Source: Ignavibacteria bacterium
GTDB taxonomy: Bacteria > Bacteroidota > Ignavibacteria > Ignavibacteriales > Ignavibacteriaceae
Assembly (NCBI GenBank): GCA_037447335.1
Contig: JBBIGV010000011.1
Span: forward strand, 8,191-72,190
Direction: 5' to 3'
DNA: 64,000 bases
The stretch's first letter is position 1. Every line of letters starts with the position of its first letter. Shown piece by piece: positions 1-58,407 of this stretch. Under the pieces are notes generated by a model. It ran no database searches. It was not told where the DNA came from and worked only from the letters and a program-made list of their open reading frames with translations. The translations under genes were made by a program, and so were the position numbers.

Positions 1-288
1 AAAGTTTATTCATTAAGAGACTTTAAACTGCAATTTATACGCGAGCATGATTTCAGCGCTATCGTGTTTGATGTAAATCAGACTCATTGGGAACAGAGTA
101 TTCTTATCTGTAAAGATTTAAAAAACAACGACCCGCTAAAACGACCGGTTGTCATTCTTTCGAGCGAATTTAATGAGGCAAAAATCCAAAGGTTTTATGA
201 TGCCGGTGCAGATAAATTTCTTGTAAAACCTTTCTCTAAAAAAGAACTTCTCGGCTCGCTTAATGAAACTATAAAAGTTTCAAATTGA
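1..288 (+). CDS. response regulator receiver domain protein, C-terminal part (5' end outside window)
   Basis: The frame is open to the window edge. VVILSS...DAGADKFLVKPFSKKELL matches the C-terminal K-P-F signature of CheY-like receivers. Confidence 0.6.
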   Translation, partial: KVYSLRDFKLQFIREHDFSAIVFDVNQTHWEQSILICKDLKNNDPLKRPVVILSSEFNEAKIQRFYDAGADKFLVKPFSKKELLGSLNETIKVSN

Positions 289-292
289 TTTT

Positions 293-958
293 TCACTTCA
301 TCTTGTATAACTGCCACCACGGTGTTCCCGGCGCCTCATGATGCTCATGATACCCGAAGAAATAACAGCTTAACATCGCAAGCAGATGATTTGGTTTCTG
401 TGTCCGCGCCTTGTGAGGTTCCATCTCCTCAGTATGCGGAAGCATATGCGGGCGATAGGTGCCGAAGTAAAAAAGCTGCAGTGTTCCGAGGAATGCAGGT
501 ATAACCCAAAAACCCCATATTGACGCTTCATTAAAATGCAGCTTTAAATAATTGAATGCTACAGCCATAATGATAAGCTGCATTACTGTTGTATATCTCC
601 AGAGAAAAATTCCCCACCAAATAAAAAAGTTTTGTGATTTCATTTAAAAATCAGGATCATTCTTTTCCCCGGGCGATTTGTGATGCCTGAAGTGATTCTC
701 CTGAAGCTTTTTATAAGACAGTCCGGCAAATAAAAACGATGATATAATTCCCAAAAACCTGTTTACGTTCTTATTCTTTGATATATTACCATGCATTGCA
801 TCATGACCGGTAATAAACAAACCGGTGTACGAGTACGCCTGTATCAGAATGTGTATATAAAATACCGGCGAGAGCGTATCAACATTTACATAAGTCAATA
901 TGTAATACAAGTGAAGAAGCCACGCAGTTATAATTGTTACAGCTATTAATATTCCCAT
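293..958 (-). pseudogene. crtW: CrtW-type beta-carotene ketolase interrupted by one in-frame TAA
   Basis: ORFs 644..958 and 293..643 abut in the same frame and are split only by TAA at 644..646. The joined product carries the ketolase His boxes HDAMHG, HFRHH..DPDF and GYHEHHE. Confidence 0.8.
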
Positions 959-995
959 CTTTTAATATCCGTTTGGTTAATCTGTTATTTTAATT

Positions 996-1640
996 TTATA
1001 TGAACAGCATGAGCAAAATAAAAAAGACAAGCTGTATAATAAAGTAATGATCAAGGATTGCGTAAGATATCTTTAACCTGAGCAAGCCGGTAAAAAGTGT
1101 TGAAATGAAAGTAATACCAAACCATGCATAATAATTTTGTATCGGAATTATATTGTTTCCCCAGTTCCAGTAACCGAGCTTCATAGCCACAGGTTCAAGC
1201 ACCATGTCAAACAACACTGCAAGAGTTGAAGCCAGCAAAGCCACAAGAAAAACATTCCGGTCAATTGTATATGCAATGCTGATTGCGCCGAGCATTACCA
1301 TTACCCAATTAAAACCGATAATCAGCGGCACTTCAAATAACTTTAAGCCTAGAACATCGCCATAAGAATACTCACCAAATATTACTCCTGTTTTTACACC
1401 GTAAGCTTCAAGAATAAAAGTTACTAAAAATGTAATCACAGCCCAGAAAAACAATTTAACATTTGCTTCACGTAAAACAACGTAAAACACAACCGATCCT
1501 GTAATTAAAAGCGTATAGGGTGTCAGCAATAACATCAAACTTTTTAATGAAGCCAACAAATGCCCTATTGTTCCGACAATAAAGATCAGGTATAAAAAAG
1601 AGATTGCTTTTGATTCTGTTAATATTTTCTGTCTTTCCAT
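996..1640 (-). CDS. polytopic carotenoid biosynthesis membrane protein, CruF-like 1',2'-hydratase candidate
   Basis: 214 aa, all transmembrane helices, with a GVIFGEYSYGDVLG..VPLIIGFNW motif. It is embedded in the carotenoid operon and overlaps the upstream gene by 22 nt. Confidence 0.55.
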   Translation of the reverse strand: MERQKILTESKAISFLYLIFIVGTIGHLLASLKSLMLLLTPYTLLITGSVVFYVVLREANVKLFFWAVITFLVTFILEAYGVKTGVIFGEYSYGDVLGLKLFEVPLIIGFNWVMVMLGAISIAYTIDRNVFLVALLASTLAVLFDMVLEPVAMKLGYWNWGNNIIPIQNYYAWFGITFISTLFTGLLRLKISYAILDHYFIIQLVFFILLMLFI

Positions 1641-2707
1641 AATACTTTGCGCGTACGGGTTTTTATAAGTGAGCGTACACCCAATATAAACATAATTATT
1701 ATCTGGAATGGGTGCAGGCTTAGATTTAATACTACCTGCTGCCTGCTTTTTAATGAAACTAAAATTCTGTTCGCGATAATCATGAAGGATGCAATATAAA
1801 CTGCTGCAGATGCCGTCATAATAACCGGAGATAAAAATACCAGTGTCAAAGCAAGCAGTAAAAGAATAAATACAATTGGTGATGTATTAAATCCTGCGTA
1901 AAAATTTTTTGTAAAGCCGTTAAATGCTTCAATGATCCCGCCGTACATCCTGCAAAATATATAATCGCCTCCGAGGAGTGTGATTATTTTAACCTTCTTA
2001 TGCTTAACTGATCGTGCAAGCTCCATGTCTTCAACCAGTTTGTTTCTGACTGCAGCGTGCCCGCCGGAATCTTCATAAGTTTTTCTGTCCCAAAACATAA
2101 ACTGACCATTGGCGGCTACAAATTCCTTTCTGTCCGAGGTGAGCACCTTTTTAAGGGGAAGAAAACTTAAGAGCAGCCAGTTCATAAGAGGGACAGTCAA
2201 TAGCTCTCCAAATGACTTGATGACCTGCGTTGGAAATACCGTAAGCATCTTTGCGTTATTAGCAATCCTTTGTTTTGCAGCGAGAGAAACAGCCTTGCGC
2301 TTCAGCTTTACGTCAGCATCAATAAATAAAAGGAGATTGCCGCCTGAGGCTTTATACAACTGATGGCACGCAAAATTTTTTCCGAGCCAGCCTGAAGGAA
2401 GAACCCCGCCTTTTATTAGTTTAAGGTTTTTAAATTCAGGCAGCATGGCTTCAACTATCCCGGCAGTATTATCGGTTGACTGATCGTCAAGTACAATAAC
2501 TTCATTAATTTTTATATCTTGATCCAAAACACTTTCCAGACACTCTTGAATATTCTTCGCTTCATTTCTTGCCGGAATCAGAACCGATATTTCTGCATCA
2601 ACCTCAAAGTTATTGTATGTCGGCTTTATTTCCGGGGCAGTAATAAAATTGTATGCCGAAATAATTACTGCGATGCCAAGCGGTACAAGAAACAGGAATC
2701 CAAACAT
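1619..2707 (-). CDS. family 2 glycosyltransferase, CruC-like carotenoid glycosyltransferase candidate
   Basis: GT2 signature LIPARNEAKNI..VIVLDDQSTDNT, with flanking TM helices and an operon context next to an acyltransferase. Confidence 0.65.
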   Translation of the reverse strand: MFGFLFLVPLGIAVIISAYNFITAPEIKPTYNNFEVDAEISVLIPARNEAKNIQECLESVLDQDIKINEVIVLDDQSTDNTAGIVEAMLPEFKNLKLIKGGVLPSGWLGKNFACHQLYKASGGNLLLFIDADVKLKRKAVSLAAKQRIANNAKMLTVFPTQVIKSFGELLTVPLMNWLLLSFLPLKKVLTSDRKEFVAANGQFMFWDRKTYEDSGGHAAVRNKLVEDMELARSVKHKKVKIITLLGGDYIFCRMYGGIIEAFNGFTKNFYAGFNTSPIVFILLLLALTLVFLSPVIMTASAAVYIASFMIIANRILVSLKSRQQVVLNLSLHPFQIIIMFILGVRSLIKTRTRKVLWKDRKY

Positions 2708-3363
2708 TAGCTTTGTAACAGATTATTTTTTCCGGGGACAAATTGAACTTCATCAAGTTTTTTAAGATTTACGTGAATAAGTTTATTGTAATGATCAAAA
2801 TTTTCAATCACTTCGCCGGCAGATAACAGTTCGCCGAATCTGCAGATCACAAATGGTTTTCTCTCATTGCCATAAATAATTTTGAAAGCCGCTATTAATA
2901 CCTGAGTGAAGGGTTTCGTATTAATAAACTTTTTTATTCCCTCTTTAATTGATAATGGTCTTTTATCATATGGTTCAATTTCACCTTGCGGATAGAATAC
3001 CACATAATTAAAGGGTGATTTAAGGATTTCCTGCGTATAGCTTATAGTTTCAATTATGCTTTTAGGGTTATTATGATTTATTGAGTAGGCTCCTACCTTC
3101 CTGAAAAACCAATATTTTTTTAATTGTTCTTCAAGCATCAACAAATGTATTTTTTTATCTGTGAATTTCTTCATCACATAATCTACAAAGAAGCCATCCC
3201 ACCAAGAGAAATGATTAGGTGTAATTACCAAACTCCGGCTGTCATCAATATTTGGTTTATCATTAAGCAGATAAATGCCTGAAAAATTCTTTTTTAATAA
3301 TCTGAAGATATAAAAGTCATACAGGGACCTTGCCCATTTTTTATGTTCGGCTTTAATCAGCAT
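2707..3363 (-). CDS. lysophospholipid-type acyltransferase, CruD-like carotenoid glycoside acyltransferase candidate
   Basis: HX4D acyltransferase motif (NHFSWWDG). There is a 1-nt TAATG stop/start overlap with the glycosyltransferase. Confidence 0.6.
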   Translation of the reverse strand: MLIKAEHKKWARSLYDFYIFRLLKKNFSGIYLLNDKPNIDDSRSLVITPNHFSWWDGFFVDYVMKKFTDKKIHLLMLEEQLKKYWFFRKVGAYSINHNNPKSIIETISYTQEILKSPFNYVVFYPQGEIEPYDKRPLSIKEGIKKFINTKPFTQVLIAAFKIIYGNERKPFVICRFGELLSAGEVIENFDHYNKLIHVNLKKLDEVQFVPGKNNLLQS

Positions 3364-3372
3364 AATCTTTCT

Positions 3373-4828
3373 TTACCAAATCTGAAACAATTTTGCCTGA
3401 GAGAATAACGAGTGGTATCCCACCGCCCGGATGAACACTCCCGCCGCAAAAATTAATCCTTTTACCCACCGGGATTTGTTCGGGTGGCGGAGGAATGCCG
3501 AGTATTTACTATTTGAAGAAACACCGTATATACTGCCCCCGATGCTTACGGTGTACTTTTCAAGCATTGGCGGAGTAAGAAAACTTTCAACTGAAATTGA
3601 GTTTTTCAGATCTATCCCAAGTGCTGCATTAATTTTATTTATGGTTCGCTGCCGTGTAACAAAAAGCTGTTCATCCCAATCCTGACCTGAATCGTACGGA
3701 GTATTTATCATTACAAACCAGTTTTCATATCCTTCCGGAGCATCGCCTTTATTAATTTTGGAAGAAATGTATATATAAATTGTTGGATCTTCAAAACAGA
3801 TTTTCCGGATAAATATATCATCAAATTCTTTTTTGTAATCTTCAGAGAAAAGAATATTGTGAGTTTCAAGTTTATCGTGGCTGCCCTTCACACCCCAGTA
3901 AAACACGATCCCGGAAAGATGGCTCAGGCTTTGTCAATTTCTTTTCGTTTTCCGAATAAACATCTTTCAACAGGTACTGATATGTATAATTCACATCAAC
4001 ATTTGAAATAACTATATCGTAATCCATTTCCTGTCCGTTAACAACAATACCCGCTGCTCTGTTATTTTTAATTAATATTTTTTCACCCCGGGCCTCATAA
4101 TTAATTGTAACACCTGAATCAAAGCATAGTTTCTGCAGCGCTTCTGAAATTGAAATTATCCCGCCCTCCGGAATAAAGGCGCCAAGGTTATATTCTACAT
4201 GAGGAATTATGTTAAGCGCAGCCGGCGCGCGGTAGGGATCAGAACCATTGTATGTAGCATAGCGATCGAATAGCTGTACAGTTTTTTTATCCTGGAAAAA
4301 GGATCTGTTTGCCCTGTGCATTGTTCTGAATGGATCAATCTTGTTTAAGCGTAAAAGTGTACTGACAGCTTTGAGGTTAAAATAAGTTTTTATTGAGGAA
4401 GGATTATTATAAAGAAATAAATCTGCGGTGAGATCATATATGTTTTTACAATATTCAAGATACTTTTTAACAGAATAAGCGTTGTCGGCTGTATTCGTTT
4501 CAATCTCCTTTGCAAATTCATCCGGATCTGAATATGCATTAATTACCGTTCCATCCGGATAAAAATATTTACAAACCGGATTAAGTTCACGTATCTGAAT
4601 ATACTTTTCCATCTGCTTGCCGGCAGAATCAAATAATTCTTTGAGAACAAAAGTCATTGTAAGCAGCGAGGGTCCGGTATCAAACCTGAAACCGTTAATT
4701 AATAGATTGCCTGCCTTTCCTCCAGCCGAATTATTCTGTTCAAATATATCCACTTGAAAGCCTGCGTTAGCCAATCTTATTGCTGCTGAAAGACCGCCCA
4801 AATCTGCGCCTATAACTGCTGCTTTCAT
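3373..4828 (-). pseudogene. CrtD/CrtI-family FAD carotenoid desaturase, frameshifted
   Basis: N-terminal GADLGGLSAAIRLANAG..GGKAG dinucleotide fold (3872..4828). The C-terminal half (3373..3906) is in another frame. The junction ..KPEPS / (I)VFYWGVKG places the shift near 3910..3918. Confidence 0.75.
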
Positions 4829-4829
4829 A

Positions 4830-5498
4830 TTAACCCCGGTGTTTAAAGTAGTTATAGAACAGCAGCCAGTAGGAAATCATTGAGAACGAATAGAAAAAAT
4901 CTTCTGCGGGAATTGTAATGATTCGCAATCCGAAAATTTCATTCTCATTATAAGTAACCACAGGCAGAGAGGTAAGAAAATAATTAACTGCAAGGAAAGG
5001 AATAAAAGTAATCAACATTGTTATCCAGTAAACCCGTGACTGCAGCATTGCAGGGTAAAGATATAATGCAGAGGGAAAAAATACTGCTGTAATCATGAAT
5101 ACTGTAAACGTATAAGATTGATCATTAAATATAATCGCTGCTATCAATAATAAAATTACCGGTATAGCAAAAAATGAACGACTTATTTTTAAATCTTTTT
5201 CCCTGAGGTAGAATGATACGGTTTCGTAAATAAAAATGCAGCTATACGGAACAGTGATAAAGAATAAAATTTCTTCAATTGGTAAACGAAACAGCGTTAC
5301 ACCGGTAACATATGCCGGATTAAAAGCCCAGTCGCCGCGCCATGTTGCAAGCACATCCCAGGCTATATAAACCGGGCTGACTACCATCACAGAATTGATA
5401 TAGTATTTCAGATTTTTATAGAATCGAAGGTTCTTTTCATTTGAAAGCAGGAGAGGAATCAGAATGATAAAAATATTTATCAGAAGATAAACACACAT
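4830..5498 (-). CDS. fused heterodimer-type lycopene beta-cyclase (CrtYc-CrtYd, two lycopene cyclase domains)
   Basis: 222 aa membrane protein with the duplicated PxE(E/D) motif (RLPIEEILFF and IPAEDFFY) typical of CrtYcd. Confidence 0.7.
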   Translation of the reverse strand: MCVYLLINIFIILIPLLLSNEKNLRFYKNLKYYINSVMVVSPVYIAWDVLATWRGDWAFNPAYVTGVTLFRLPIEEILFFITVPYSCIFIYETVSFYLREKDLKISRSFFAIPVILLLIAAIIFNDQSYTFTVFMITAVFFPSALYLYPAMLQSRVYWITMLITFIPFLAVNYFLTSLPVVTYNENEIFGLRIITIPAEDFFYSFSMISYWLLFYNYFKHRG

Positions 5499-6067
5499 CG
5501 TTTTGCCAATGATATAGCAATATGCTTAAGCTCGTTAATATTTTCACTGCTGAGGCGGTTGCTTTCAAGCATAAATTCGATTATTCCTTTTTGCAGCGTA
5601 TAGTCAACTTCTGAATAATCACGCTCTTTAAGCAGCTCCACTATAACCTGCTGATCTTCACGTCGTTCTTTGCCGTAGCCTAAAATTCCCGGAAGATGGT
5701 GAAGAATAGAGAATCTTATAAAGCGGATTTCAAGGTCTCTTGGTTCTAGCTGCACTGATTTTTCAAGTATATCCAGAGCAGATATAACATAACTTAATTT
5801 TGAGAAAGGATTGAAAACGTGTTTTGCTTTCAATGCATCCACTGCGCCATAGTATGCAATTATAATAGGCTGCGGACTTTTGGAATAATTTCTATGAAGA
5901 AATCCCTCAAGCGCTGCAAGCTGGCTTTCATCTTCAACAGCCTGATAAAATAGTTCGCGGTTAATCCTGAGGTGAGACGTATCAACTTTAGATTTTTCTG
6001 AAGTAAACGCGTAGGGAGTCTCATTAAGAATGAAAACGAAACAAAAAACTGCAAAAATTATTTTCAT
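5480..6067 (-). CDS. secreted helical protein of unknown function inside the carotenoid operon
   Basis: Signal peptide MKIIFAVFCFVFIL. ATGA overlap with the crtB stop and a 19-nt overlap with the cyclase start. I recognise no family. Confidence 0.5.
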   Translation of the reverse strand: MKIIFAVFCFVFILNETPYAFTSEKSKVDTSHLRINRELFYQAVEDESQLAALEGFLHRNYSKSPQPIIIAYYGAVDALKAKHVFNPFSKLSYVISALDILEKSVQLEPRDLEIRFIRFSILHHLPGILGYGKERREDQQVIVELLKERDYSEVDYTLQKGIIEFMLESNRLSSENINELKHIAISLAKRCVFIF

Positions 6068-6908
6068 CAGGTTATTCTCAGAATTTTTAATTCAAAAAAA
6101 GTTTTTGCAAACAAAGCAAGCTTGGTAAAATTGGAAACCCTTACACGTTTTTTCATCAGGTCTTTAACCTGAAGTTTTCTGATCTTCTTAAAAAGTATCC
6201 AATAATACATATAGGCTGAATAAACTCCAAGCCTCACACCACCAGGCAACCTCTTAATACCCCAGAATGCAAGTTAAAACTCTTTCTGAATTTCGATTTC
6301 AAGTTTTCGTTTATTCTCATCATCTATCAGCGTCATACTGCTAACCCCCGGCAGATAAATCCTTCCCCGTTCGGCAAGATCGCACTTAATGTCGCGCAAA
6401 AAATTTACTTTTTGAAATGCAGAACCTAGTGCACGCGCCGAAGGGACAAGTTTGTCAAATAATTCATTATCATTCCCACAAAACACTTTCAGGCACATCA
6501 GCCCTACTACTTCTGCGGAACCGTAAACGTAGTCATCGTAATGATCTTTTTCATAATAATTATTGTAAAGGTCCAGCTCCATGCTGTTCAGGAAATCAGT
6601 TATATATTTTTTATCAATCCGGTATTCATTCACAGTTTTCTGAAAAGCGTTCAATACGGGATTAACTGAAATGCCTTCACGGATTGCATATTCAGTATCG
6701 CTGCGGAACTGCATAAGCATTTCACGCCTGTTGTAATTGTAAAAGGAATAAACAATTTCATCAGCAAGTCTAACATAGCCGTAAATTGCGTAAATAGCCG
6801 CTCTGTATGCCGGAGCAAAAACTCTTATACCGAGGCTGAAAGAAGTGCTGTATTTTCTTGTGATTAATTTGCGACTTTATAGCTGGTTTTATGATATAGC
6901 TGTTCCAT
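6067..6908 (-). pseudogene. crtB: phytoene synthase with one frameshift and one in-frame TAA
   Basis: The gene is in three pieces:
- MEQLYHKTSYKVAN* (from the ATG at 6908).
- ITRKYSTSFSLGIRVFAPAYRAAIYAIYGYVRLADEIV...GRIYLP, reached by a -1 shift in an A-run at about 6868..6870.
- LAFWGIKRLPGGVRLGVYSAYMYY..KRVRVS, after an in-frame TAA at 6274..6276. Confidence 0.8.
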
Positions 6909-8384
6909 AATCATTCCGGATTCTTTCTGTTACAAGTTTTGAACTGATTATAACCATAGGCAGCCCAGTGCCCGGTGTTGTTGAGGCGCCAACGTAATAA
7001 AGATTGGGAAGCTTCTCATCTTTATTTTTTGGTCTGAATGCGCCTACCTGCATAATGTCATGCGCTAATCCTAGCCCGGAGCCTCTGTAAAGATTAAACT
7101 TCTTTTCCCAGTCCTCCGGTGTAAATACTTTTTTAACAAGAATATTTTCTTTTATGTTAAAGTTTGAACGTTTGCTTAAATCATCTATTATAATATCAGC
7201 GAGTTCTTGCCGTCGCTCCAGTCAGGGTTGTATCGTCTGTCCGGAACCGGGCAAAGAATAAAAATATTTTCACAGCCTTCAGGTTCACAATCAGATGCAG
7301 ACTTTGAAAGGACGTTCACATAGTAATAGGGTTTTTGCGGACTTACGGATGACGTAAAAATCTTATCTGCATAACCTCTGAAATTATTACCAAGAAAATA
7401 ATTGTGGTGCATCAGCGTATCAACCTTTCCTTTAACACCGAGGTAGATTGTAAATGGTGCGAGCGTCCAGTTCATTTTATCCAGCTTCTGTTGACTGAAG
7501 TTCTTTCTTCCAAGCATTTTGCCTCTGAAAGACGCAGCATCTGAATTCGAAACAAAAATATCCGCATTCCATTCTCTGCCGAGGTTATCCATTACCGAAT
7601 ATATTTTCCCGTTCGAATTAGAAATCATCACTACTTCGGTACTAAAAATAAAGTTAACTCCTTTTTCCCAGAGGATTTTCATCAATTCATTAACCAGCGT
7701 ATACATGCCGCCTTCAACCTTCCAGTAGCCATCATGCCTCATTTCGGTATAGTTAAGCAGAGAATAAATTGCCGGGGTCTGAAAAGGTGTTGAACCCAGA
7801 AAAAAAAGCAACCAGAGAAAAATGATCCTAACCTCGTTGGAATTAAAGTTCTTTTCAACTTCCGACCAAAGATTTCTGAAGAGATAGGGCAGGTGCTTCA
7901 TAGGAACTTTTGTAAGTGTATGCAGATACTTAATCAAACTATCAAAATTTGATTTTACAACTTTGTTCTCTGTTTCGTGAAAAAACTGTCCTGCTCTTTT
8001 AAGATACTGCTCAACTTTACCAGCAAGCCCGGGTTCAATATCCTTAAACTCCTCCTCTAATTTTTGAAGGTCTTTCCAAATTCTATAGGATTTTGGATTT
8101 CTTTCAAAGAATACCTGGTAAAGCGGGTCAAGCGGTGTAAGTTTAACAGGATTTTTTAGTCCGCAGCTATTAAACAGTTCGTCAAACTCATAACTCATGC
8201 TCATAAAGGAGGGACCAAAATCAAATGTAAATCCATCTGTTTTAAGCTGATTAAGCCTTCCGCCCGGTGTTGAATGTTTTTCAATTACAGTTACGTCATA
8301 TCCATCCGTGACGAGCCTGAGGGCTGTTGCCAATCCTCCTAAGCCGGAACCAATAATTATTGCTTTCTTATTCGTTTTTTGCAT
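6889..8384 (-). pseudogene. crtI: phytoene desaturase, frameshifted near the C-terminus
   Basis: N-terminal IIGSGLGGLATALRL..EKHSTPGGR. The C-terminal ADIIIDDLSKR...GSGLGLAHDIMQVGAFRPKNKD..LYYVGASTTPGTGLPMVIISSKL is in a different frame. The shift lies near 7201..7208. Confidence 0.8.
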
Positions 8385-8671
8385 AGTTGTAAGTAAAAAC
8401 GAAATTTTGATTCAATTAGTTCCGTGAAAAGAGCCTTTTTTTAAGAATTATGATAATAAGCTGCTTCTTTCACGGACACTGAATTGTATCAGCAAATTTA
8501 ATTTAAAATATTTCTAATAGGTAGATGAGGGAATCCGGTAGACCAGATGATATTGCAAACTATTTCAGGCGGCAAAACATTGATAACTTCAGGCGGTAAT
8601 TTCGCTATAAAGCCAATATAAATATTCCATTTAATGCAGATAATCATTATTTTTAGAAAAAAATTTAGTAT

Positions 8672-9613
8672 ATGTATTTCAATGAACGGAAATACGCAAA
8701 GCCCTTTTTCAAATGAGCTGGCGGCAAAACGCAGTTGTTAAATCAATTTAAGAATTTCTTTCCCGAAGATTTAAAGAATGGCAAGATTAAGTACTATTAT
8801 GAACCATTTCTTGGCAGTGGTGCTGTTTTCTTTTTTATTGCTCAAAATTATCCGATTAAGAAAGCTTTTTTATCCGATATTAATGAAGAATTAATTCTTA
8901 CATATAATGCAGTTAAGAATGACGTTTCAACTTTAATTAAAAATTTAAAGAAATTAAAGCGGGATTATTATTCTTTAAATGAGAAGTATCAGGAATTATT
9001 TTTCTATAAACACAGAGATACATATAATAAGGAGAAATCTAAAATTGATTTCACAGCGTACTCAAAAGAGTGGGTTGTTAGAGCAGCTCAAATGATTTTC
9101 TTAAATAAAACCTGCTTTAATGGTTTATTCAGTTTAAATAGAAAAGGAGAGTTTAATGTTCCTTTTGGCAGATATAAAAATCCAGGGATTCTTAATGAAG
9201 AAAATCTATTACTTGCATCAGAAGTTTTAAAGATCGCGGAAATCAGCCTAACTGATTTTGAATTGATACAGGAGTATATAACTCATGATTTTTTTGTTTA
9301 TTTCGATCCTCCTTACCGACCAATCAGTAAAACTTCAAGTTTCACATCTTATAGCAAACATGAATTTAATGACAAAGATCAGAAAAGACTCGCAAAGCTA
9401 TTCAAAGAATTGGGAATCAATGGAAATAAATTGATGCTAAGTAATTCTGATCCTCATAATGAAAACTCTTCAGATAATTTTTTTGAAAACCATTATTCTG
9501 ATTTTATGATAGAAAAAGTTAAAGCAAGCAGAATGATTAACTGTAAAGGAGATAAAAGAGGTGCGATAAATGAGCTTATAATTACCAATTATAATTTGGG
9601 AGCAATCCAATGA
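8672..9613 (+). pseudogene. Dam-like N6-adenine DNA methyltransferase with an in-frame TGA
   Basis: MYFNERKYAKPFFK-TGA-AGGKTQLL replaces the near-invariant PFLKWAGGK motif (TGA at 8714..8716). Downstream are EPFLGSGAVFF (motif I) and FDPPYRP (motif IV). Confidence 0.8.
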
Positions 9614-9924
9614 ATTATATTCCTTCACCCAATTATTTTAAAATATATTATACTTATCAAAAATATCCAGATATTTTTAAACCAACCGATAGGGTTCCGA
9701 TCAGGAAGATTAAAATTGACAAAAAGAGATTAGATTATTCAAATGATATTTATGAGGAAACAGTAAATGAAATTATCAATAATTTCCACATAGAGGGATG
9801 GGAACCTATTTTTATCACACCGGATTTTTATTTATCTGATGGTCATCACAGACTAAAAGCAGCGAAAAAGATGGGACTAAAATATATTGATGTAGTCATT
9901 GTCGAATACGAAATGTTAAAGTGA
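9610..9924 (+). CDS. ParB/sulfiredoxin-like nuclease domain protein
   Basis: 104 aa with the DGHHRLKAAKKMG motif. ATGA overlap with the methylase stop. Confidence 0.6.
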   Translation: MNYIPSPNYFKIYYTYQKYPDIFKPTDRVPIRKIKIDKKRLDYSNDIYEETVNEIINNFHIEGWEPIFITPDFYLSDGHHRLKAAKKMGLKYIDVVIVEYEMLK

Positions 9925-9975
9925 CTTTATTAATATTTTAAATGAGCTTTTCATAACTATAACAATGAAGTTTTA

Positions 9976-11129
9976 ATGGCTGGTTATCTTTTCAATTTAG
10001 ACAGCATAAATTCTCTTGAACTTTATATTCATAACGGAATTTATTCTACAAAACTATCTATTCCAGCTGGTGTTTGGAAAAACATCATGAGGCAACATTT
10101 GCTGATTATGCGACAATGAAAGAGGGCGATAATGTTTATTTCTTCATAATTAGGAAAATATATGGGGTTGGTGAGTTGGTAAGTGTTGGACGTGATTGCA
10201 AATATTGCAATTTTCCGCATGCTGGGTTACCTCAGAACTTTGAGTATAACAGCATTAGAAATACTTTACTATGGAATGAGGGAAATTTTAATAATAATCA
10301 AAGATGGATATGTTTGTTTAAGCCAGCTCCTTATTTCTTTAGAAATGGGATTGATATGGATGACATATTATCGTCAAATCCGGATTCTTTTAGGATGCTT
10401 CGAGCTTTTTGGAAGGTATCATTTATCAAATTTGATGATGAAGAAAATCAGGCGTTTAGAGATGCCTTGTTAAAATTCAATCAGGATGCGCTGACAAATA
10501 ATCACAATGACGTATTATTTAATTCTAATTTTAGTGAAATGCATGAGAGATTAAGAAATGATTTTGAATTAGAAAATTATTTGCTTGATGTTGGTCCCAT
10601 ATTAGAAAGTTGTTCTGAGAATAATAAGTTAAAACATGAAATGGCAATTGAGGCTGGTTTATTATACCAATTATCTAATGATCACAATCCAACTGAATTA
10701 ATTTTCGGCAGATGGGATTATTTATCACATCAAGTAATTGCTTTGCCATTTAAACCAATTGATTATATGGATAAAATGGATGTTTTTGGTTATTCTTATA
10801 TTACCGGCTATAATCCTACATAGTCGAACTATCTAGTTATTGAGATAAAAAAAGATGAGGCTAAGATTGAAGATTTAGAACAATTAATGAAATATGTCGA
10901 TTGGATAAAGGATGAATATTGTCATGGTGATTATAATATGATTGAAGCATTTTTGGTAGCATTTAATTTTAACGATAGTCTTATTAACCAAAAAGAAAGC
11001 ATTGCATTTAGAAAATTTACTGTGGGTAGACGTCCCGCAAAATCTTTTGAGTGGACAAAATTGCGGTTGATAAGTTATCAGTTTGATAACAGAGAAAAAA
11101 GAATAATATTTAATCCTATTGATGTTTAA
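9976..11129 (+). pseudogene. PD-(D/E)xK restriction endonuclease-like protein with a possible PUA/EVE-like N-domain; frameshift plus in-frame TAG
   Basis: MAGYLFNLDS..PAGVW (ATG at 9976) shifts frame in the A5 run 10078..10082 into HHEATFADYATMKEGDNVYFF. An in-frame TAG at 10821..10823 precedes YLVIEIKKDEA. The nuclease core is MDVFGY...IEIKK. The EVE-like call is inference only. Confidence 0.6.
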
Positions 11130-11904
11130 TTCAGAAATTAATTTAGAGAATACTTCCATGTGGTCCTTTCCCGAGAGGGGGAAATGGGCAACTCACAATC
11201 CAAAATATCGTGGCAATTTTGCTCCACAAATTGCCCGAAATCTTATTCTTAATTATTCTTCTGAGGGAGAATTAATTTTAGACCCCATGGTCGGTTCCGG
11301 AACAACATTGATTGAAGCAAAACTTTTACATAGAAGTGCAGTTGGAATTGACATTAATCCCGAGGCGGTTGAACTATCTAAAAAAGCGCTTGAGTTTAAT
11401 TATAATACTAACAGCAAACAAGGAGTAATTAAAGGAGATGCAAGAGATTTATCTATTTTTGATGATAACCAATTTGATTTAATAATAATTCATCCTCCAT
11501 ATTTGAATATAGTAAGGTATTCAAATGAATAAATACAGGAAGATTTGTCTTCAATTAGCTCATTACCCAAATTTTGTGATGAAATAGAAAAAGTGACGGC
11601 AGAACTTTACAGGGTTCTGAAACCAAATCGTTATTGTGCAATATTAATTGGAGATACGCGCAAAGCACAACATTATGTGCCTATTTCTTATAATGTAATG
11701 GAAAGATTTCTTAAAGCAGGTTTTGCTCTGAAAGAAGAAATAATAAAAGCACAGCATAACTGTGTTAATTCAAAGCGATGGGAATTAAAAGCAAAACAAT
11801 ACAAATTCTATTTAATAATGCACGAGCATCTTTTCGTTTTCCGAAAACCAAAAGCAGATGAAAATCTTTCAAGAATTTCATGGTCAATGAAAAAGAGAAG
11901 CTGA
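11122..11904 (+). pseudogene. N4/N6 DNA methyltransferase with an in-frame TAA
   Basis: LDPMVGSGTTLIEA (AdoMet motif I) and IIHPPY (motif IV). TAA at 11530..11532 splits two same-frame ORFs (..11532 and 11545..11904). Confidence 0.7.
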
Positions 11905-11943
11905 AAGCAGCCACACTGCGCTACGCCCACAGGAAGTGAAACA

Positions 11944-22205: not shown

Positions 22206-23261
22206 TTAATCCTGCTTGTGAAACTGGACGCTTTCTTCTTTAACAAAATTTACAAGCGCCTTTACGTTTTCGGGATTTATATCCGGCAGAATCCCATGAC
22301 CAAGATTAAAAATATGTCCCTCTCCTTTCCCGTATGAATTGAGAACGCGCTTTACTTCATTCTTAATGAAATCCTTGCTGCCGTATAAAACAGTTGGGTC
22401 AAGATTGCCCTGCAATGCAACATTGCCATTTGTAACCGCACGAACTTCGCCGAGGTCCATAGTCCAGTCAAGTCCGAGCACATCAGCGCCGCATTTTGAC
22501 ATCTCTTTTATTTTGTAATGAACTCCCTTTGCAAAAAAGATAACCGGCTCATCTTTTCTTTTAATTCGTGAAATGATCTTCTGAACGTATTGAAGAGAGA
22601 ATTCTTTAAAATCTTTCGGGGAAAGTATTCCTCCCCAGGTATCAAAAATCTGGACTGCATCTGCGCCCGCTTCAATTTTGGCCGAAAGATAATCAGTAAT
22701 TACATCTGAAAGTTTATTTAGCAGCGAATGTGCAAGCCCGGGATTATTATAAATCAGCTTCTTTACCTCAGAAAAATTTTTTGAGCCTTTTCCTTCAACC
22801 ATGTAAGTTAGCAATGTCCATGGCGACCCGCTGAAACCAATTAAAGGAACGCGACCTTTCAATTCTTTTTTTGTAAGCGAGACTGCGTCAAGAACATACT
22901 TAAGCTCTTTTGATGGATCAATTTTTTTCAAACGCTGAGAATCCGATTCATTCCTTACAGGCTTCGGAAACACCGGACCTTTTCCTTCATCCATAATCAG
23001 TTCCATGCCCATCGCTTCGGGAATTACAAGTATATCTGAAAAAATAATTGCAGCATCAACACCAATTATATCAATCGGCTGAAGAGTAACTTCTGCTGCT
23101 AATTCAGGCGTACGGCACATAGTTAAAAAATCATGCTTTGCTCTTACTGCGCGGTATTCGGGCAGGTATCTTCCCGCCTGCCGCATAATCCATATCGGTG
23201 TCCGATCAACTTTCTGTCTTTTACAGGCTCTTAACAATAAATCGTTTTGAAGCTGGTTCAA
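22206..23261 (-). CDS. hemE: uroporphyrinogen decarboxylase
   Basis: 351 aa with the IWIMRQAGRYLPEY signature. Confidence 0.9.
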   Translation of the reverse strand: MNQLQNDLLLRACKRQKVDRTPIWIMRQAGRYLPEYRAVRAKHDFLTMCRTPELAAEVTLQPIDIIGVDAAIIFSDILVIPEAMGMELIMDEGKGPVFPKPVRNESDSQRLKKIDPSKELKYVLDAVSLTKKELKGRVPLIGFSGSPWTLLTYMVEGKGSKNFSEVKKLIYNNPGLAHSLLNKLSDVITDYLSAKIEAGADAVQIFDTWGGILSPKDFKEFSLQYVQKIISRIKRKDEPVIFFAKGVHYKIKEMSKCGADVLGLDWTMDLGEVRAVTNGNVALQGNLDPTVLYGSKDFIKNEVKRVLNSYGKGEGHIFNLGHGILPDINPENVKALVNFVKEESVQFHKQD

Positions 23262-23272
23262 TTTATCTCCGG

Positions 23273-24088
23273 TTAATTTTCTGTTTTTGATTGATAGTAT
23301 TTGATTACTGATTCTGCTAACGCTTCTATTGTATATTCTTCCGGCTGCACTGAAACTGTAACCCCTTTATCTTCAATTGCAGTTCTGGTTGTTGGTCCAA
23401 TCGCTGCAACATCAACTTGCCTGAAGTACCCCAGTATATCCTGAATTTCCATGATTGAAATAAAATTTTCAAAAGTTGAAGGACTTGTGAAAACGAATAA
23501 ATCAATTTTGTTTTTCTGTAATTCATCTTTGCAGGAAGCTGTTTTATCTGCATCGGGTTTGCCAACATTGTAAACGGGAACGGCTTTGACGACAGCGCCC
23601 GTTTTTTCAAGTTCAATACGCAGTTCATCTCTTCCGATTGCAGAGCACGGAATAAAAATTAATTTATCTTTAAGAACAAGCTGGGATAAAGATCGCAGAA
23701 TACCCATTGCACTGAAATCATCCGGAATAATACTCACAGGTATGCCGCTGCTTGCGCATTTAGCCGAGGTTTTATTGCCCACTGCAACAACTGTTGTGTT
23801 TTTATAGTCCATTATTTTTTTTATGACTGTTAATCTTTCACAAAACATTTTAACAGCATTTGAAGACGTAAAAATAATATAATCCGGCTGCGTAGCATTC
23901 AAAACAACATCATCAAATTCCCTCCAGCTATCGGGCGGAATAATATTAATAGCAGGAAAGATTATAACTTTTGCACCGAGGGATGTAAACAACTTAGCTG
24001 ATTCGCCGGACTGTTCATGCGCACGGGTTATAACAATGGTTTTATTTTTTAAAGGAAGAGAATTAAGGCTGTAAAATGCAGAGTGCAT
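23273..24088 (-). CDS. hemD: uroporphyrinogen-III synthase
   Basis: 271 aa with HemD-like two-lobe repeats, sitting between hemC and hemE. Confidence 0.75.
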   Translation of the reverse strand: MHSAFYSLNSLPLKNKTIVITRAHEQSGESAKLFTSLGAKVIIFPAINIIPPDSWREFDDVVLNATQPDYIIFTSSNAVKMFCERLTVIKKIMDYKNTTVVAVGNKTSAKCASSGIPVSIIPDDFSAMGILRSLSQLVLKDKLIFIPCSAIGRDELRIELEKTGAVVKAVPVYNVGKPDADKTASCKDELQKNKIDLFVFTSPSTFENFISIMEIQDILGYFRQVDVAAIGPTTRTAIEDKGVTVSVQPEEYTIEALAESVIKYYQSKTEN

Positions 24089-37042: not shown

Positions 37043-37570
37043 TTATAAGTTCCTCGGGAAAAATCTTCTCTTCCATGAGCCGGATACTTCGCCCTTTGAA
37101 TCTTTGAAGGAATCTTCTTTAAAAATTAATTCAATAGATATACTTTTGACTTTACTTGCTGCCTGGGTAACAATGCCTTTATCATCGTAACCTTCAACAA
37201 TAAATTTCTGAACCGGTGTAGTCCATTCGGTGACCGGGCTGCTGGTTCTTCTTTTTAACTCTACGATGCCCTGCCCTTTTGCAACTGAATAATAAACTGT
37301 GTCAACAACACCGTTATTATCCAGGTCGGCGAGAAAGGTTATAGAGGTTCCGGAAATATTTAATATTTTATCGCTGGCAGAAACCCTGTAGCCAAGTTTC
37401 TGAAAATCATGTTCGATTATTGCTCCAATCTCAGTTGCTGATCTTTGGGCAATTTCACTAAGCTTGGTTTCCTGGGATTTGGCGGAGAAATGAAAGGTTA
37501 ACCCTATTAAGGATAATAGTACCATTCCGCCAATTATATAAGATCCGGCTATATCTAATATGTGATGCAT
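37043..37570 (-). CDS. minor pilin-like protein (N-terminal hydrophobic helix, no canonical leader)
   Basis: MHHILDIAGSYIIGGMVLLSLIGLTF followed by a soluble beta-rich domain, in operon context. Confidence 0.45.
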   Translation of the reverse strand: MHHILDIAGSYIIGGMVLLSLIGLTFHFSAKSQETKLSEIAQRSATEIGAIIEHDFQKLGYRVSASDKILNISGTSITFLADLDNNGVVDTVYYSVAKGQGIVELKRRTSSPVTEWTTPVQKFIVEGYDDKGIVTQAASKVKSISIELIFKEDSFKDSKGEVSGSWKRRFFPRNL

Positions 37571-37576
37571 AATTAT

Positions 37577-38062
37577 TTAATAACTTTTGTATGAATAAAT
37601 TCTTACTGTGTCTGTCATAAACGGATGTGTTACTGTAACCTGGATTCTTTTAAGTCTTGAACGAACCAATAATGTGTCTATTCCATTATGTTCATTCACG
37701 TAATGAACCCTTGCTAAAAGATCAAAATTCCCACCGCGTAAGGTAGAATCTATCCTTGGGTGGAAATTGTAATCGTCAACATCATTAAACGTTGCAAATG
37801 TTTCACCAGGTTCGGGGCCCATAAGGTTTGGTGGTGTCAGTATATTAATATCAGATAGGATCGGGTTGCCAACCACAAAATGATCAAAGGCTTTTTCGGT
37901 GATTTCATTGATCAGGTTCTGCCCGACCGATGTTGCCATAACAATATATTCGGCGGAGAGCTTCTGCTCTTCGGAGCTTATAATTGTGCGGTTGACGTTT
38001 AACGCCAGAAGGGAAAAGAGAAAGATGCCGCCTATTACTAAGTATGTTTGTACGTTACTCAT
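37577..38062 (-). CDS. minor pilin-like protein (N-terminal hydrophobic helix, no canonical leader)
   Basis: The start is taken at MSNVQTYLVIGGIFLFSLLALNV. The longer TTG-initiated ORF reaching 38113 overlaps the promoter motif. Confidence 0.45.
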   Translation of the reverse strand: MSNVQTYLVIGGIFLFSLLALNVNRTIISSEEQKLSAEYIVMATSVGQNLINEITEKAFDHFVVGNPILSDINILTPPNLMGPEPGETFATFNDVDDYNFHPRIDSTLRGGNFDLLARVHYVNEHNGIDTLLVRSRLKRIQVTVTHPFMTDTVRIYSYKSY

Positions 38063-38110
38063 CTGAGGGCTTAAGATTGAGTTTATGATTATTATTTGAT
38101 AATACAAACA

Positions 38111-38125
38111 CAACTATCGTGCAAA
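38111..38125 (-). promoter_or_regulatory. shared 15-nt promoter/operator motif TTTGCACGATAGTTG upstream of the minor-pilin-like operon
   Basis: On the minus strand it lies 48 nt upstream of the ATG at 38062. It is 14/15 identical to 35618..35632. Confidence 0.4.
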
Positions 38126-57186: not shown

Positions 57187-58407
57187 ATGAAAAAGGGATT
57201 TTGTTCGGTCTCGATAGGGATTGTGTTAATACTTTTAATGAACTGTTCAGTCTACACTCAAAGCTGGACAATTCAGAACAGCAACACAACTCAACAACTA
57301 AAAGGTATTCATATGGTTAATGAACTTGTCGGTTGGATTTGTGGTGATGGCGGCGCTTTGCTACATACTACAACCGGGGGTCAGACCTGGACACCTGTTC
57401 CGATTATTGCTGCTGATCTTCATAGTGTGGTTTTCAAAGATCAGAATACCGGAATTGTTGTTGGTGATAACGGTATAATCTTAAGAACTACTAACGCCGG
57501 AACTAATTGGAATCAGGTTAACAGCACAACTTCATCTCAATTAAGGGCTGCTGCAGTGAGCAACGCGGGGATATTCTAGGCAGCAGGCAGAGATGGTGCC
57601 ATAGTGAAATCAACAGATGATGGCGCTACCTGGACATCTCAAAACAGCGGAACAACCGCTCGCTTCAGAGGAATTGCAGCAAGGGGTACCAGCTTTGCCT
57701 GGGCAGTTGGCGAAGATGGAATGATCAAACATACTGCAGCCAGTGGCGCTTCATGGTTTAACCAGACAAGCGGAACACCGGACGATCTTCATGATATTCA
57801 ATTTCTGTCAGATTCTGAAGGCTTTTCCGGCGGCAGCGGATCTAAAATTATCTATACTAATAATGCTGGTAGTGTCTGGTCTGACAGATCAACCGGGATT
57901 ATTACGGGTATAAACGGAATTTTCTTCCTTAATACTAATTCAGGATATGCAGTCAGTGATAATGGTCTGATATACGTAACTAACAATGGCGGCGTGAATT
58001 GGTTAACCCAACCAAGTAATACAACACAAACTTTAAATGAAATCTTTTTTGTCAGTGAAAATAAAGGCTGGGCTGTTGGTGATTTTGGAACCATTGTTCA
58101 CTTCAGTGCATCTGCTACCAGCATTGATAATCAGTTATTATTGAATTAGTTTTCACTTGAACAAAATTTCCCTAATCCATTTAATCCGGTTACCGCTATC
58201 AGTTTTTACATTCCTGAAAATTATTTTGTTACTCTGAAAGTGTATAATGTAGTTGGCAGAGAAGTAGCTCTGTTGATAAACGATAATCTCCCCTCCGGCA
58301 GGTACAGTTATAATTTTAGTGCAGATAATTTAGCATCAGGAATTTACTTTTATGAGCTTTCTGCGGGTAACTTCAGACAGGTAAAAAAAATGATACTAAC
58401 TAAATAA
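57187..58407 (+). pseudogene. BNR/Asp-box beta-propeller (Ycf48-like) T9SS cargo with two in-frame TAG codons
   Basis: Three same-frame segments are split by TAG at 57577..57579 and 58147..58149. There are six SxDxGxTW-like repeats, and the terminal segment is a T9SS CTD (LEQNFPNPFNP..GIYFYELSAG). Confidence 0.8.

What the first reader, a model, noticed from the sequence alone, without database searches (positions are those of the whole stretch)
293..8384. Complete-looking keto-carotenoid glycoside ester pathway that is genetically dead
**Predicted product.** The nine-gene operon encodes everything needed for a monocyclic 4-keto, 1'-hydroxy, 3',4'-didehydro carotenoid glycoside fatty-acid ester (salinixanthin/flexixanthin type). 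The genes are CrtB, CrtI, CrtYcd, CrtD, CruF-like, CruC-like, CruD-like and CrtW.

**Lesions.**
- crtI is frameshifted (about 7205).
- crtB has a frameshift (about 6869) and a TAA (6274).
- crtD is frameshifted (about 3914).
- crtW has a TAA (644).

**Consequence.** With both committed steps broken, the organism should be unpigmented. The retained operon structure, with coupled overlaps, suggests the decay is recent.
Basis: partly seen in the sequence, partly recalled or inferred. Interest (0 to 1): 0.7.

Follow-up and report, generated by a model that had tools for sequence, protein, structure and literature searches.

The report
Dead carotenoid pigment operon, Ignavibacteria MAG
An uncultured Ignavibacteriaceae bacterium carries the nine-gene operon its relatives use to make a red keto-carotenoid glycoside ester, but frameshifts and stop codons have recently broken four genes, including both first steps; this is a clear but ordinary case of pigment-pathway decay.

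Summary
Window 8384..293 (minus strand) holds crtI-crtB-orf195-crtYcd-crtD-cruD-cruC-cruF-crtW. This is the gene set of the Ignavibacterium album cluster, which makes 1'-OH-torulene and deoxyflexixanthin.

I aligned the window to an intact relative (L082, 88.6% nt identity). All five reported lesions are present:
- crtI: -1 nt at 7209/7208.
- crtB: -1 nt at 6868/6867 and a TAA at 6276-6274.
- crtD: -2 nt at 3920/3919.
- crtW: a TAA at 646-644.

- crtD: a second deletion (-1 nt at 3454/3453).
- crtW: a one-codon deletion inside the third His box.
- crtI: a compensated -1/+1 shift that garbles four near-invariant residues.
- crtB: D54Y in the first DxxxD motif.
- orf195: a stop-loss.

The lesions recur in three assemblies and are not in long homopolymers. 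The 5.4-kb flank has no coding indels, so they are not artefacts.

dN/dS stays low (0.09-0.22), and two nonsense hits imply about 0.005 neutral substitutions per site. The decay is therefore recent.

The kind of event is ordinary: a new, decayed member of a known operon type. Whether the organism lacks pigment cannot be tested from one contig.

The parts
8385..8530 (-). Conserved 5' non-coding leader or promoter region of the operon. Homology to the intact relative L082 ends at 8530.
   Evidence: blastn and MAFFT alignments to L082. One 1-nt indel at about 8467.
6889..8384 (-). crtI (phytoene desaturase) pseudogene. A -1 nt deletion at 7209/7208 truncates the product at 398 of 498 aa and removes the C-terminal FAD-binding motif. 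A compensated -1/+1 shift at 7820-7797 changes SLVA to LWLL.
6067..6908 (-). crtB (phytoene synthase) pseudogene. It has a -1 nt deletion at 6868/6867 after codon 14, D54Y in the first DxxxD motif (6750-6748), S176C in the second motif, and TAA at codon 212 (6276-6274).
5480..6067 (-). orf195, an intact uncharacterised gene. The product has an N-terminal hydrophobic helix followed by a TPR-like all-alpha repeat. The ancestral TGA stop is lost (A->T at 5495), which adds 5 aa.
4830..5498 (-). crtYcd, a fused heterodimer-type lycopene cyclase with two Lycopene_cyc domains. The ORF is intact and carries S2C.
3353..4828 (-). crtD (1-hydroxycarotenoid 3,4-desaturase) pseudogene. It has a -2 nt deletion (TC) at 3920/3919 and a -1 nt deletion (T) at 3454/3453. 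About 155 codons between them are out of frame.
2707..3363 (-). cruD-like acyltransferase, intact ORF.
1619..2707 (-). cruC-like family-2 glycosyltransferase, intact ORF.
996..1640 (-). cruF-like carotenoid 1',2'-hydratase (Caroten_synth), intact ORF.
293..958 (-). crtW (carotenoid 4-ketolase) pseudogene. Codon 105 is TAT->TAA (646-644). A 3-nt deletion at about 352-347 changes the third His box from HxEHH to HEHH.

Best explanation
The region is a recently inactivated copy of the carotenoid operon typical of Ignavibacteria. In intact relatives the pathway would run as follows. CrtB makes phytoene and CrtI makes lycopene. CrtYcd forms the single beta-ring. CruF hydrates the other end to a 1'-OH group and CrtD introduces the 3',4' double bond. 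CrtW adds the 4-keto group. CruC glycosylates the 1'-OH and CruD acylates the sugar. The product is a deoxyflexixanthin-type glycoside ester.

In this lineage the operon has taken small deletions, two nonsense mutations and active-site missense changes in crtI, crtB, crtD and crtW. No phytoene or lycopene can therefore be made from this locus. The five genes with open frames (orf195, crtYcd, cruD, cruC, cruF) are left without a substrate.

Shown here: gene identities, every lesion, their absence from close and distant relatives, their recurrence in independent assemblies, and low dN/dS. Inferred: the loss of pigment, neutral decay after selection for photo- or oxidative protection was relaxed, and the order of events.
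For: **Gene families.**

**Intact relatives.** An intact nine-gene cluster with the same order and the same downstream neighbours occurs in a relative at 88.6% nt identity (L082). That relative is seen near-clonally in about 18 Logan contigs from many runs. At least 37 of 60 species-level relatives have all eight core genes intact.

**Lesions.** They were mapped base by base. All net coding indels are deletions, and none lies in a homopolymer longer than 3 nt except the compensated T-run pair.

**Reproducibility.** The same lesions are present in CAYSPC010000011.1, the Logan SRR11582151 contig and the window. These differ by a single SNP at 4788.

**No intact allele.** No copy closer than 89% identity exists among 5.8 billion protein clusters.

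**Clean flanks.** Four genes and 1,724 codons have no indels and no stops.

**TAA is a normal stop.**

**Recency.** dN/dS is 0.09-0.22. Neutral divergence since inactivation is about 0.005 per site (95% CI 0.0006-0.019), against dS of 0.18-0.72 to L082.

**Chemistry and knockout phenotype.** The I. album chemistry is in PMC3362086. A crtB/crtI knockout of Rhodothermus marinus, which has a related pathway, is colourless with no detectable carotenoids (PMC7414004).
Against: - Only one 64-kb contig of a metagenome-assembled genome is available, so a second functional crtB/crtI elsewhere in the genome cannot be excluded.
- No reads were available. Allele frequencies and the linkage of the lesions on one haplotype are therefore unverified.
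- Five genes have no frame-disrupting lesion. The post-hoc probability of this is 0.008 for these specific genes. Under the unbiased null, the probability that 8 lesions hit 4 or fewer of 9 genes is 0.20.
- The excess of derived amino-acid changes on the window branch is not significant. Relaxed constraint is not directly shown.
Confidence: 0.85

Rival explanations
1. The lesions are sequencing or assembly artefacts and the operon is intact in the living organism.
For: The source is a MAG from a co-assembly. Four relatives whose MFD isolate names suggest (from my own knowledge, not tested here) long-read assemblies also show broken crt genes that may be errors.
Against: - The lesions are identical in three assemblies, including an independent Logan assembly of a single run.
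- Three of the lesions are substitutions (two TAA codons and D54Y).
- The frame-breaking deletions lie in non-homopolymer or very short repeat contexts.
- There are no coding indels in 5.4 kb of adjacent flank.
- The rest of the window has normal long ORFs and 89% coding coverage.
Confidence: 0.04
2. The contig is a consensus of several co-existing haplotypes, each carrying only one or a few loss-of-function alleles. No single cell would then have all the lesions, and some cells might still be pigmented.
For: At least two haplotypes exist (C/T at 4788). The lesions lie hundreds of bases apart, beyond what short reads can link directly.
Against: - Two different assemblers chose the lesion allele at every site.
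- No intact or partly intact allele of this lineage is on record.
- Even a single crtB or crtI lesion abolishes the pathway.
Confidence: 0.07
3. The broken genes are still expressed as functional products through recoding. Possible routes are programmed frameshifting, stop-codon read-through, or split subunits such as the two crtW halves joined by a TAAATG stop-start junction.
For: In crtW the codon after the TAA is ATG, so the second half could in principle be re-initiated.
Against: - No slippery heptamers are seen on reading the sequence at the deletion sites; no formal scan was run.
- The shifts are of different kinds (-1 and -2).
- TAA is the main genuine stop.
- The third His box of CrtW, the DxxxD motif of CrtB and a conserved CrtI segment are also damaged.
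- No relative shares any of these features.
Confidence: 0.02

Closest known systems
[quoted passage not shown] 2012, PMC3362086)
   Same: The enzyme set and the predicted products are the same: 1'-OH-torulene and deoxyflexixanthin, probably as glycosyl fatty-acyl esters. Both belong to the same bacterial class. More than 37 Ignavibacteria relatives share the operon order.
   Different: I. album's genes work and its pigments were detected by HPLC. The window copy has four genes broken by at least eight disabling lesions.
Intact cluster of the nearest relative (Logan contigs L082-L095, e.g. SRR18243706_170523)
   Same: It is 88.6% identical at the nucleotide level over window 8530..1. It has the same nine genes, including orf190/195, the same overlaps and the same downstream histidine-kinase neighbours.
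   Different: All nine genes are intact (498, 280, 190, 222, 492, 218, 362, 214 and 222 aa). The upstream flank differs. In the window a low-GC methyltransferase island starts 146 nt upstream of crtI.
Rhodothermus marinus / Salinibacter ruber salinixanthin-type gamma-carotenoid acyl glycoside pathway (CrtB, CrtI, CrtY, CrtO, CruF, CruC, CruD; PMC7414004)
   Same: The chemical logic is the same: a monocyclic 4-keto carotenoid with a 1'-O-glycoside fatty-acid ester. Knocking out crtB/crtI there gives colourless cells. This is the phenotype predicted here.
   Different: The ketolase there is CrtO, not CrtW. cruF is fused to crtB. The operon layout and the phylum differ, and that pathway is functional.
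Unitary pseudogenes in free-living bacteria (general phenomenon; from established knowledge)
   Same: The lesions show a deletion bias and a mix of small indels and nonsense mutations. They are concentrated in a pathway that has presumably become dispensable. The window also holds other nonsense-interrupted genes.
   Different: Nothing differs mechanistically. This is simply an unusually clean multi-hit example, and a close intact comparator is available.

Membership tests
CrtI-type phytoene desaturase (NCBIfam TIGR02734) | Sequence match above the curated cut-off. | tested here: met
   The L082 orthologue scores 393.6 bits against a cut-off of 238.1. The window N-terminal fragment matches Amino_oxidase positions 1-276 of 443 and NAD_binding_8. 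It is 76-89% identical to full-length CrtI proteins.
CrtI-type phytoene desaturase (NCBIfam TIGR02734) | An uninterrupted reading frame of about 495 aa that includes the C-terminal conserved FAD-binding segment. | tested here: not met
   A -1 nt deletion at 7209/7208 ends the frame at 398 aa. The C-terminal 100 aa are in another frame. Residues 190-193 are also garbled.
Phytoene synthase CrtB (Pfam SQS_PSY) | Domain match above the gathering score. | tested here: met
   103.7 bits against a cut-off of 26.
Phytoene synthase CrtB (Pfam SQS_PSY) | Two Asp-rich (DxxxD) motifs and a continuous ORF. | tested here: not met
   The first motif DEIVD is DEIVY in the window, at a column where 99% of 76 orthologues have D. 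There is a frameshift after codon 14 and a TAA at codon 212.
1-hydroxycarotenoid 3,4-desaturase CrtD (NCBIfam NF042421) | Equivalog-level match and a continuous ORF. | tested here: not met
   The L082 orthologue scores 514.5 against a cut-off of 500. The window copy has -2 and -1 deletions that put about 155 codons out of frame.
Carotenoid ketolase CrtW (membrane di-iron desaturase superfamily) | Three His boxes (HDAMH, HxxHH, HxxHH) in a continuous ORF. | tested here: not met
   Boxes 1 and 2 are present. Box 3 is shortened from HxEHH to HEHH by a 3-nt deletion. There is a TAA at codon 105. CrtW is the best NCBIfam hit for the intact L082 orthologue, but at 217.5 bits it is below the equivalog cut-off of 350.
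Heterodimer-type lycopene cyclase CrtYcd (TIGR03462 / PF18916) | Two lycopene-cyclase domains and an intact ORF. | tested here: met
   The score is 100.9 bits against a cut-off of 39.4, with two matched stretches. The ORF is 222 aa, equal in length to the orthologues.
CruF carotenoid 1',2'-hydratase | Caroten_synth domain; equivalog-level match. | tested here: inconclusive
   Pfam PF04240 scores 90.4 against a cut-off of 25. The NCBIfam CruF equivalogs score 74.6 and 30.2, below their cut-offs of 154.7 and 300. The name 'CruF-like' rests on the domain match, operon context and the literature.
CruC glycosyltransferase / CruD acyltransferase | GT2 and lysophospholipid-acyltransferase-type domains adjacent to each other within a carotenoid operon. 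| tested here: met
   PF00535 scores 68.3 and PF01553 scores 34.4. The two genes overlap by 1 nt. Substrate specificity cannot be tested here.
Ignavibacterium-type deoxyflexixanthin glycoside ester operon | Gene set crtI-crtB-(orf190)-crtY-crtD-cruD-cruC-cruF-crtW in one co-directional operon. | tested here: met
   The order is the same in L082 and in dozens of GTDB species representatives.
Ignavibacterium-type deoxyflexixanthin glycoside ester operon | Production of the pigment. | not testable with these tools
   This needs HPLC of a culture. The I. album data are in PMC3362086.
Pseudogenised (decaying) operon | Frame-disrupting lesions relative to intact orthologues that recur in independent assemblies. 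| tested here: met
Pseudogenised (decaying) operon | Relaxed selective constraint (raised dN/dS, or an excess of derived changes on the lineage). | tested here: inconclusive
   dN/dS is 0.09-0.22 in the cluster against 0.05-0.085 in the flanks. Derived changes number 38 vs 25 (p=0.13). Deviations at conserved columns number 16 vs 7 (p=0.09). This fits very recent inactivation but is not significant.

The most novel reading that the evidence does not exclude
The decay may not be simple neutral drift. Two readings remain open.

(a) Loss of pigment was selected in this lineage's habitat. The cluster would then have been hit repeatedly in the genes that matter.

(b) The five genes that keep open frames are retained because they act on another lipid. 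These are the TPR-like orf195, crtYcd, cruD, cruC and cruF. If so, the tailoring half of a carotenoid operon would be being repurposed.
Probability: 0.08. Interest if true: 0.5.

Novelty: new member of a known kind. Interest (0 to 1): 0.28.

Why it matters
- **Dated example of pathway loss.** This is a clean natural case in an uncultured Ignavibacteriaceae lineage. An intact sister cluster at 88.6% identity allows each lesion to be polarised.
- **Annotation warning.** Pipelines that count crt gene hits would wrongly score this MAG as carotenogenic.
- **Lead on orf195.** It flags a conserved, uncharacterised TPR-like gene inside these operons.
- **Limits.** The finding does not change what is known about carotenoid biosynthesis or about pseudogene formation.

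Tried and rejected
- **The window is I. album JCM 16511.** Rejected. The best genome-collection hit is 76% identical. Exact-protein look-up places the window on a MAG contig essentially identical to GCA_964432855.1 CAYSPC010000011.1.
- **TAA is reassigned or read through.** Rejected. TAA ends 28 of 48 other ORFs.
- **Homopolymer sequencing errors.** Rejected from the deletion contexts and the clean flanks.
- **The methyltransferase island removed the promoter.** Not supported. A leader of 146 nt upstream of crtI is retained and conserved with L082. The upstream neighbour varies among relatives anyway. The sigma-70 scan gave nothing above shuffled expectation.
- **Lesions avoid the five intact genes non-randomly.** Not significant under the unbiased null (P=0.20).
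- **ORFs 37043-37570 and 37577-38113 are a split gene.** Rejected. They are two separate small proteins, each with its own N-terminal hydrophobic segment.
- **Habitat of the samples.** A literature search for the SRA run accessions found nothing.
- **Function of orf195.** The PDB fold search gave only weak TPR-type matches (no E<=0.001, TM<=0.47). No function could be assigned.
Full report
**1. What is at the coordinates**

Window 8384..293 carries nine co-directional minus-strand genes with overlapping or nearly abutting ends. Pfam and NCBIfam scans gave these assignments:
- crtI: Amino_oxidase/NAD_binding_8.
- crtB: SQS_PSY, 103.7 bits.
- orf195: a 195-aa ORF with no family.
- crtYcd: a two-domain lycopene cyclase; TIGR03462 scores 100.9 against a cut-off of 39.4.
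- crtD.
- cruD-like: a PF01553 acyltransferase.
- cruC-like: a GT2 glycosyltransferase.
- cruF-like: a Caroten_synth protein.
- crtW: an FA_desaturase-type ketolase.

For the broken genes I scored the intact orthologues of the nearest relative. crtI_fam scores 393.6 (cut-off 238.1). The CrtD equivalog scores 514.5 (cut-off 500). CrtW is the best hit at 217.5, below its equivalog cut-off of 350.

This is the gene set reported for Ignavibacterium album. That organism makes 1'-OH-torulene and deoxyflexixanthin, probably as glycosyl fatty-acyl esters (PMC3362086).

**2. Where the sequence comes from**

A scan of one genome per GTDB species found 368 relatives, all Ignavibacteria. The best was only 76% identical in CrtI. 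Exact-protein look-up placed the window's proteins on NCBI MAG contig CAYSPC010000011.1 (GCA_964432855.1, 72,353 bp). They also occur on a 30-kb Logan contig from run SRR11582151. Across the overlaps, 12.7 kb with the MAG contig and 7.2 kb with the fetched Logan locus, the window differs from both only by a single SNP at 4788. The window is therefore from an uncultured Ignavibacteriaceae population, not from I. album JCM 16511.

**3. The comparator**

The CrtY protein clusters at 90% identity or more with proteins from about 18 Logan contigs from many sequencing runs. These contigs (L082-L095) are 99.6-100% identical to each other. They are 88.6% identical to window 8530..1.

They carry all nine genes intact: 498, 280, 190, 222, 492, 218, 362, 214 and 222 aa. 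They also have the same downstream neighbours, a 506-aa hybrid kinase and a 437-aa GAF kinase. More distant relatives also have intact clusters. At least 37 of 60 loci with enough sequence have all eight core genes in single frames.

**4. The lesions**

tblastn with intact orthologues and nucleotide alignment to L082 give the following.
- **crtI.** A G is deleted between 7209 and 7208, so the frame ends at 398 of 498 codons. The conserved C-terminal segment YYVGASTTPGTGLPMV falls in another frame. A -1/+1 pair in two T-runs (7820-7797) converts SLVA to LWLL at four columns conserved in at least 95% of 79 orthologues.
- **crtB.** The ATG is at 6908. A G is deleted between 6868 and 6867, after codon 14. 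The first Asp-rich motif carries D54Y (DEIVD to DEIVY; 6750-6748). Codon 212 is TAA (6276-6274).
- **crtD.** TC is deleted between 3920 and 3919, and a T between 3454 and 3453. The two deletions sum to 3 nt, so only the roughly 155 codons between them are out of frame.
- **crtW.** Codon 105 is TAT->TAA (646-644). A 3-nt deletion at about 352-347 shortens the third His box from HxEHH to HEHH.
- **orf195.** The ATGA stop/start overlap has become ATGT at 5495. This adds 5 aa to orf195 and gives CrtY S2C.

Five more were missed.

**5. Real or artefact?**

- The same lesions are present in three assemblies made by different assemblers.
- Three are substitutions.
- The frame-breaking deletions are not in long homopolymers.
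- The adjacent 5.4 kb of flank, aligned to L082, has no coding indel or stop in 1,724 codons. Its only two 1-nt gaps are intergenic.
- The rest of the window has normal long ORFs and 89% coding coverage.
- TAA is the commonest genuine stop, ending 28 of 48 ORFs. Recoding of TAA is therefore excluded.
- The nearest CrtI in a collection of 5.8 billion protein clusters, apart from this truncated one, is the 89%-identical L082 type. No intact allele of this lineage is on record.

I put the artefact explanation at about 4%. A mixed-haplotype consensus gets about 7%. Reads would be needed to settle either.

**6. How old is the decay?**

- dN/dS between the window and L082 is 0.09-0.22 for the nine genes. 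It is 0.05-0.085 for four flanking genes. Most of the divergence (dS 0.18-0.72) therefore accrued under purifying selection.
- I polarised amino-acid differences with 29-79 outgroup orthologues per gene. The window branch has 38 derived changes and the L082 branch 25 (p=0.13). Deviations at highly conserved columns number 16 vs 7 (p=0.09), and four of the 16 come from the single compensated shift.
- About 4.8% of random substitutions in these genes create stops. Two nonsense hits therefore imply about 42 neutral substitutions, or about 0.005 per site (95% CI 0.0006-0.019). That is a few percent of the branch length.

The absence of frame-breaking lesions in five genes is not significant under the unbiased null (P=0.20).

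**7. Mechanism and consequence**

Shown: both committed enzymes are multiply disabled at this locus, and so are CrtD and CrtW.

Inferred: no C40 carotenoid is made. The best available experimental parallel is a crtB/crtI knockout in the related Rhodothermus marinus pathway. It is colourless, with no carotenoids detectable by DAD or MS (PMC7414004).

Also inferred: selection for the pigment was relaxed and the operon is drifting, with the deletion bias usual for bacterial pseudogenes.

Homology with L082 stops 146 nt upstream of crtI. There a low-GC (28-30%) methyltransferase island begins. However, the leader is retained and upstream neighbours vary among relatives. I therefore do not claim that promoter loss was the trigger.

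**8. Comparison and novelty**

Both the operon type and the process (pseudogenisation of a dispensable pathway) are known. This is a new, decayed member of a known kind. A close intact comparator makes it well documented. It is not surprising to a specialist, so I score interest at 0.28.

**9. Things seen in passing**

- Two further nonsense-interrupted genes lie in the window. One is a Type II DNA methyltransferase with a TAA at 11530-11532; both halves match one PADLOC model. The other is a Ycf48/BNR-like gene with a TAG at 57577-57579.
- The orf195 family is uncharacterised and confined to Ignavibacteria-type genomes. The AlphaFold model is confident (pLDDT 87.6) and shows an all-alpha repeat. 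PDB matches are only weak TPR-type hits, including a bacterial sterol transporter.

Noticed in passing
window 11119-11904 (+), stop at 11530-11532: A Type II DNA methyltransferase is split by an in-frame TAA. The two halves match positions 13-144 and 154-249 of the same PADLOC model, PDLC03376. This is a further nonsense pseudogene outside the carotenoid cluster.
   Followed up: yes
window 8530-11940: A low-GC (28-30%) island lies between the crt leader and carB. It holds a Dam-like D12 methyltransferase (8735-9613), a small ParB-like/DUF1015-like ORF (9610-9924), unknown ORFs of 249 aa and 80 aa, and the broken methyltransferase. It is absent from L082 and from all 80 relatives, so it is probably horizontally acquired. 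No restriction endonuclease was recognised.
   Followed up: partly
window 57187-58149 (+), stop at 57577-57579: A Ycf48/BNR-repeat (PSII_BNR) gene is interrupted by an in-frame TAG. The N- and C-terminal ORFs match profile positions 6-98 and 235-302.
   Followed up: partly
window 5480-6067 (-); L082:9432-10004: orf195/orf190 is a conserved uncharacterised gene between crtB and crtY in 29 of 80 relatives, including Melioribacter. It has no Pfam or NCBIfam match. All 40 homologues are of the Ignavibacteria type, and those that carry a name are annotated 'hypothetical'. The AlphaFold model (pLDDT 87.6) shows an N-terminal hydrophobic helix followed by a TPR-like helical repeat. The weak Foldseek hits include a bacterial sterol transporter (7t1s_B, TM 0.44). 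It may be a carotenoid-handling or chaperone protein.
   Followed up: partly
window 1-288 and L081:12420-15257; L082:15217-18054: A hybrid histidine kinase/response regulator (506 aa) and a GAF histidine kinase (437 aa) lie convergent to crtW. The 506-aa protein is a conserved neighbour in 37 of 80 loci. The pair are candidate regulators of the operon. Both are intact here, with dN/dS of 0.05-0.07.
   Followed up: partly
loci L014, L023, L032, L039 (MFD MAGs); L037, L043, L052, L059, L062, L074; L055, L064, L065, L069, L073: Gene content and integrity vary among relatives. Four MFD-series MAGs, probably long-read assemblies, have 1-3 crt genes with frameshifts or stops; these may be errors. 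About six loci lack crtW. About five lack cruD-cruC-cruF-crtW. The tailoring end of the pathway is therefore naturally variable.
   Followed up: partly
window 4788: This is the only difference between the window and the other two assemblies (C vs T on the minus strand, within the crtD N-terminal part). At least two haplotypes therefore share all the lesions.
   Followed up: yes
window 22206-24088 (-): The haem biosynthesis genes hemE (URO-D) and hemD (HEM4) are adjacent and intact. This is ordinary context.
   Followed up: no
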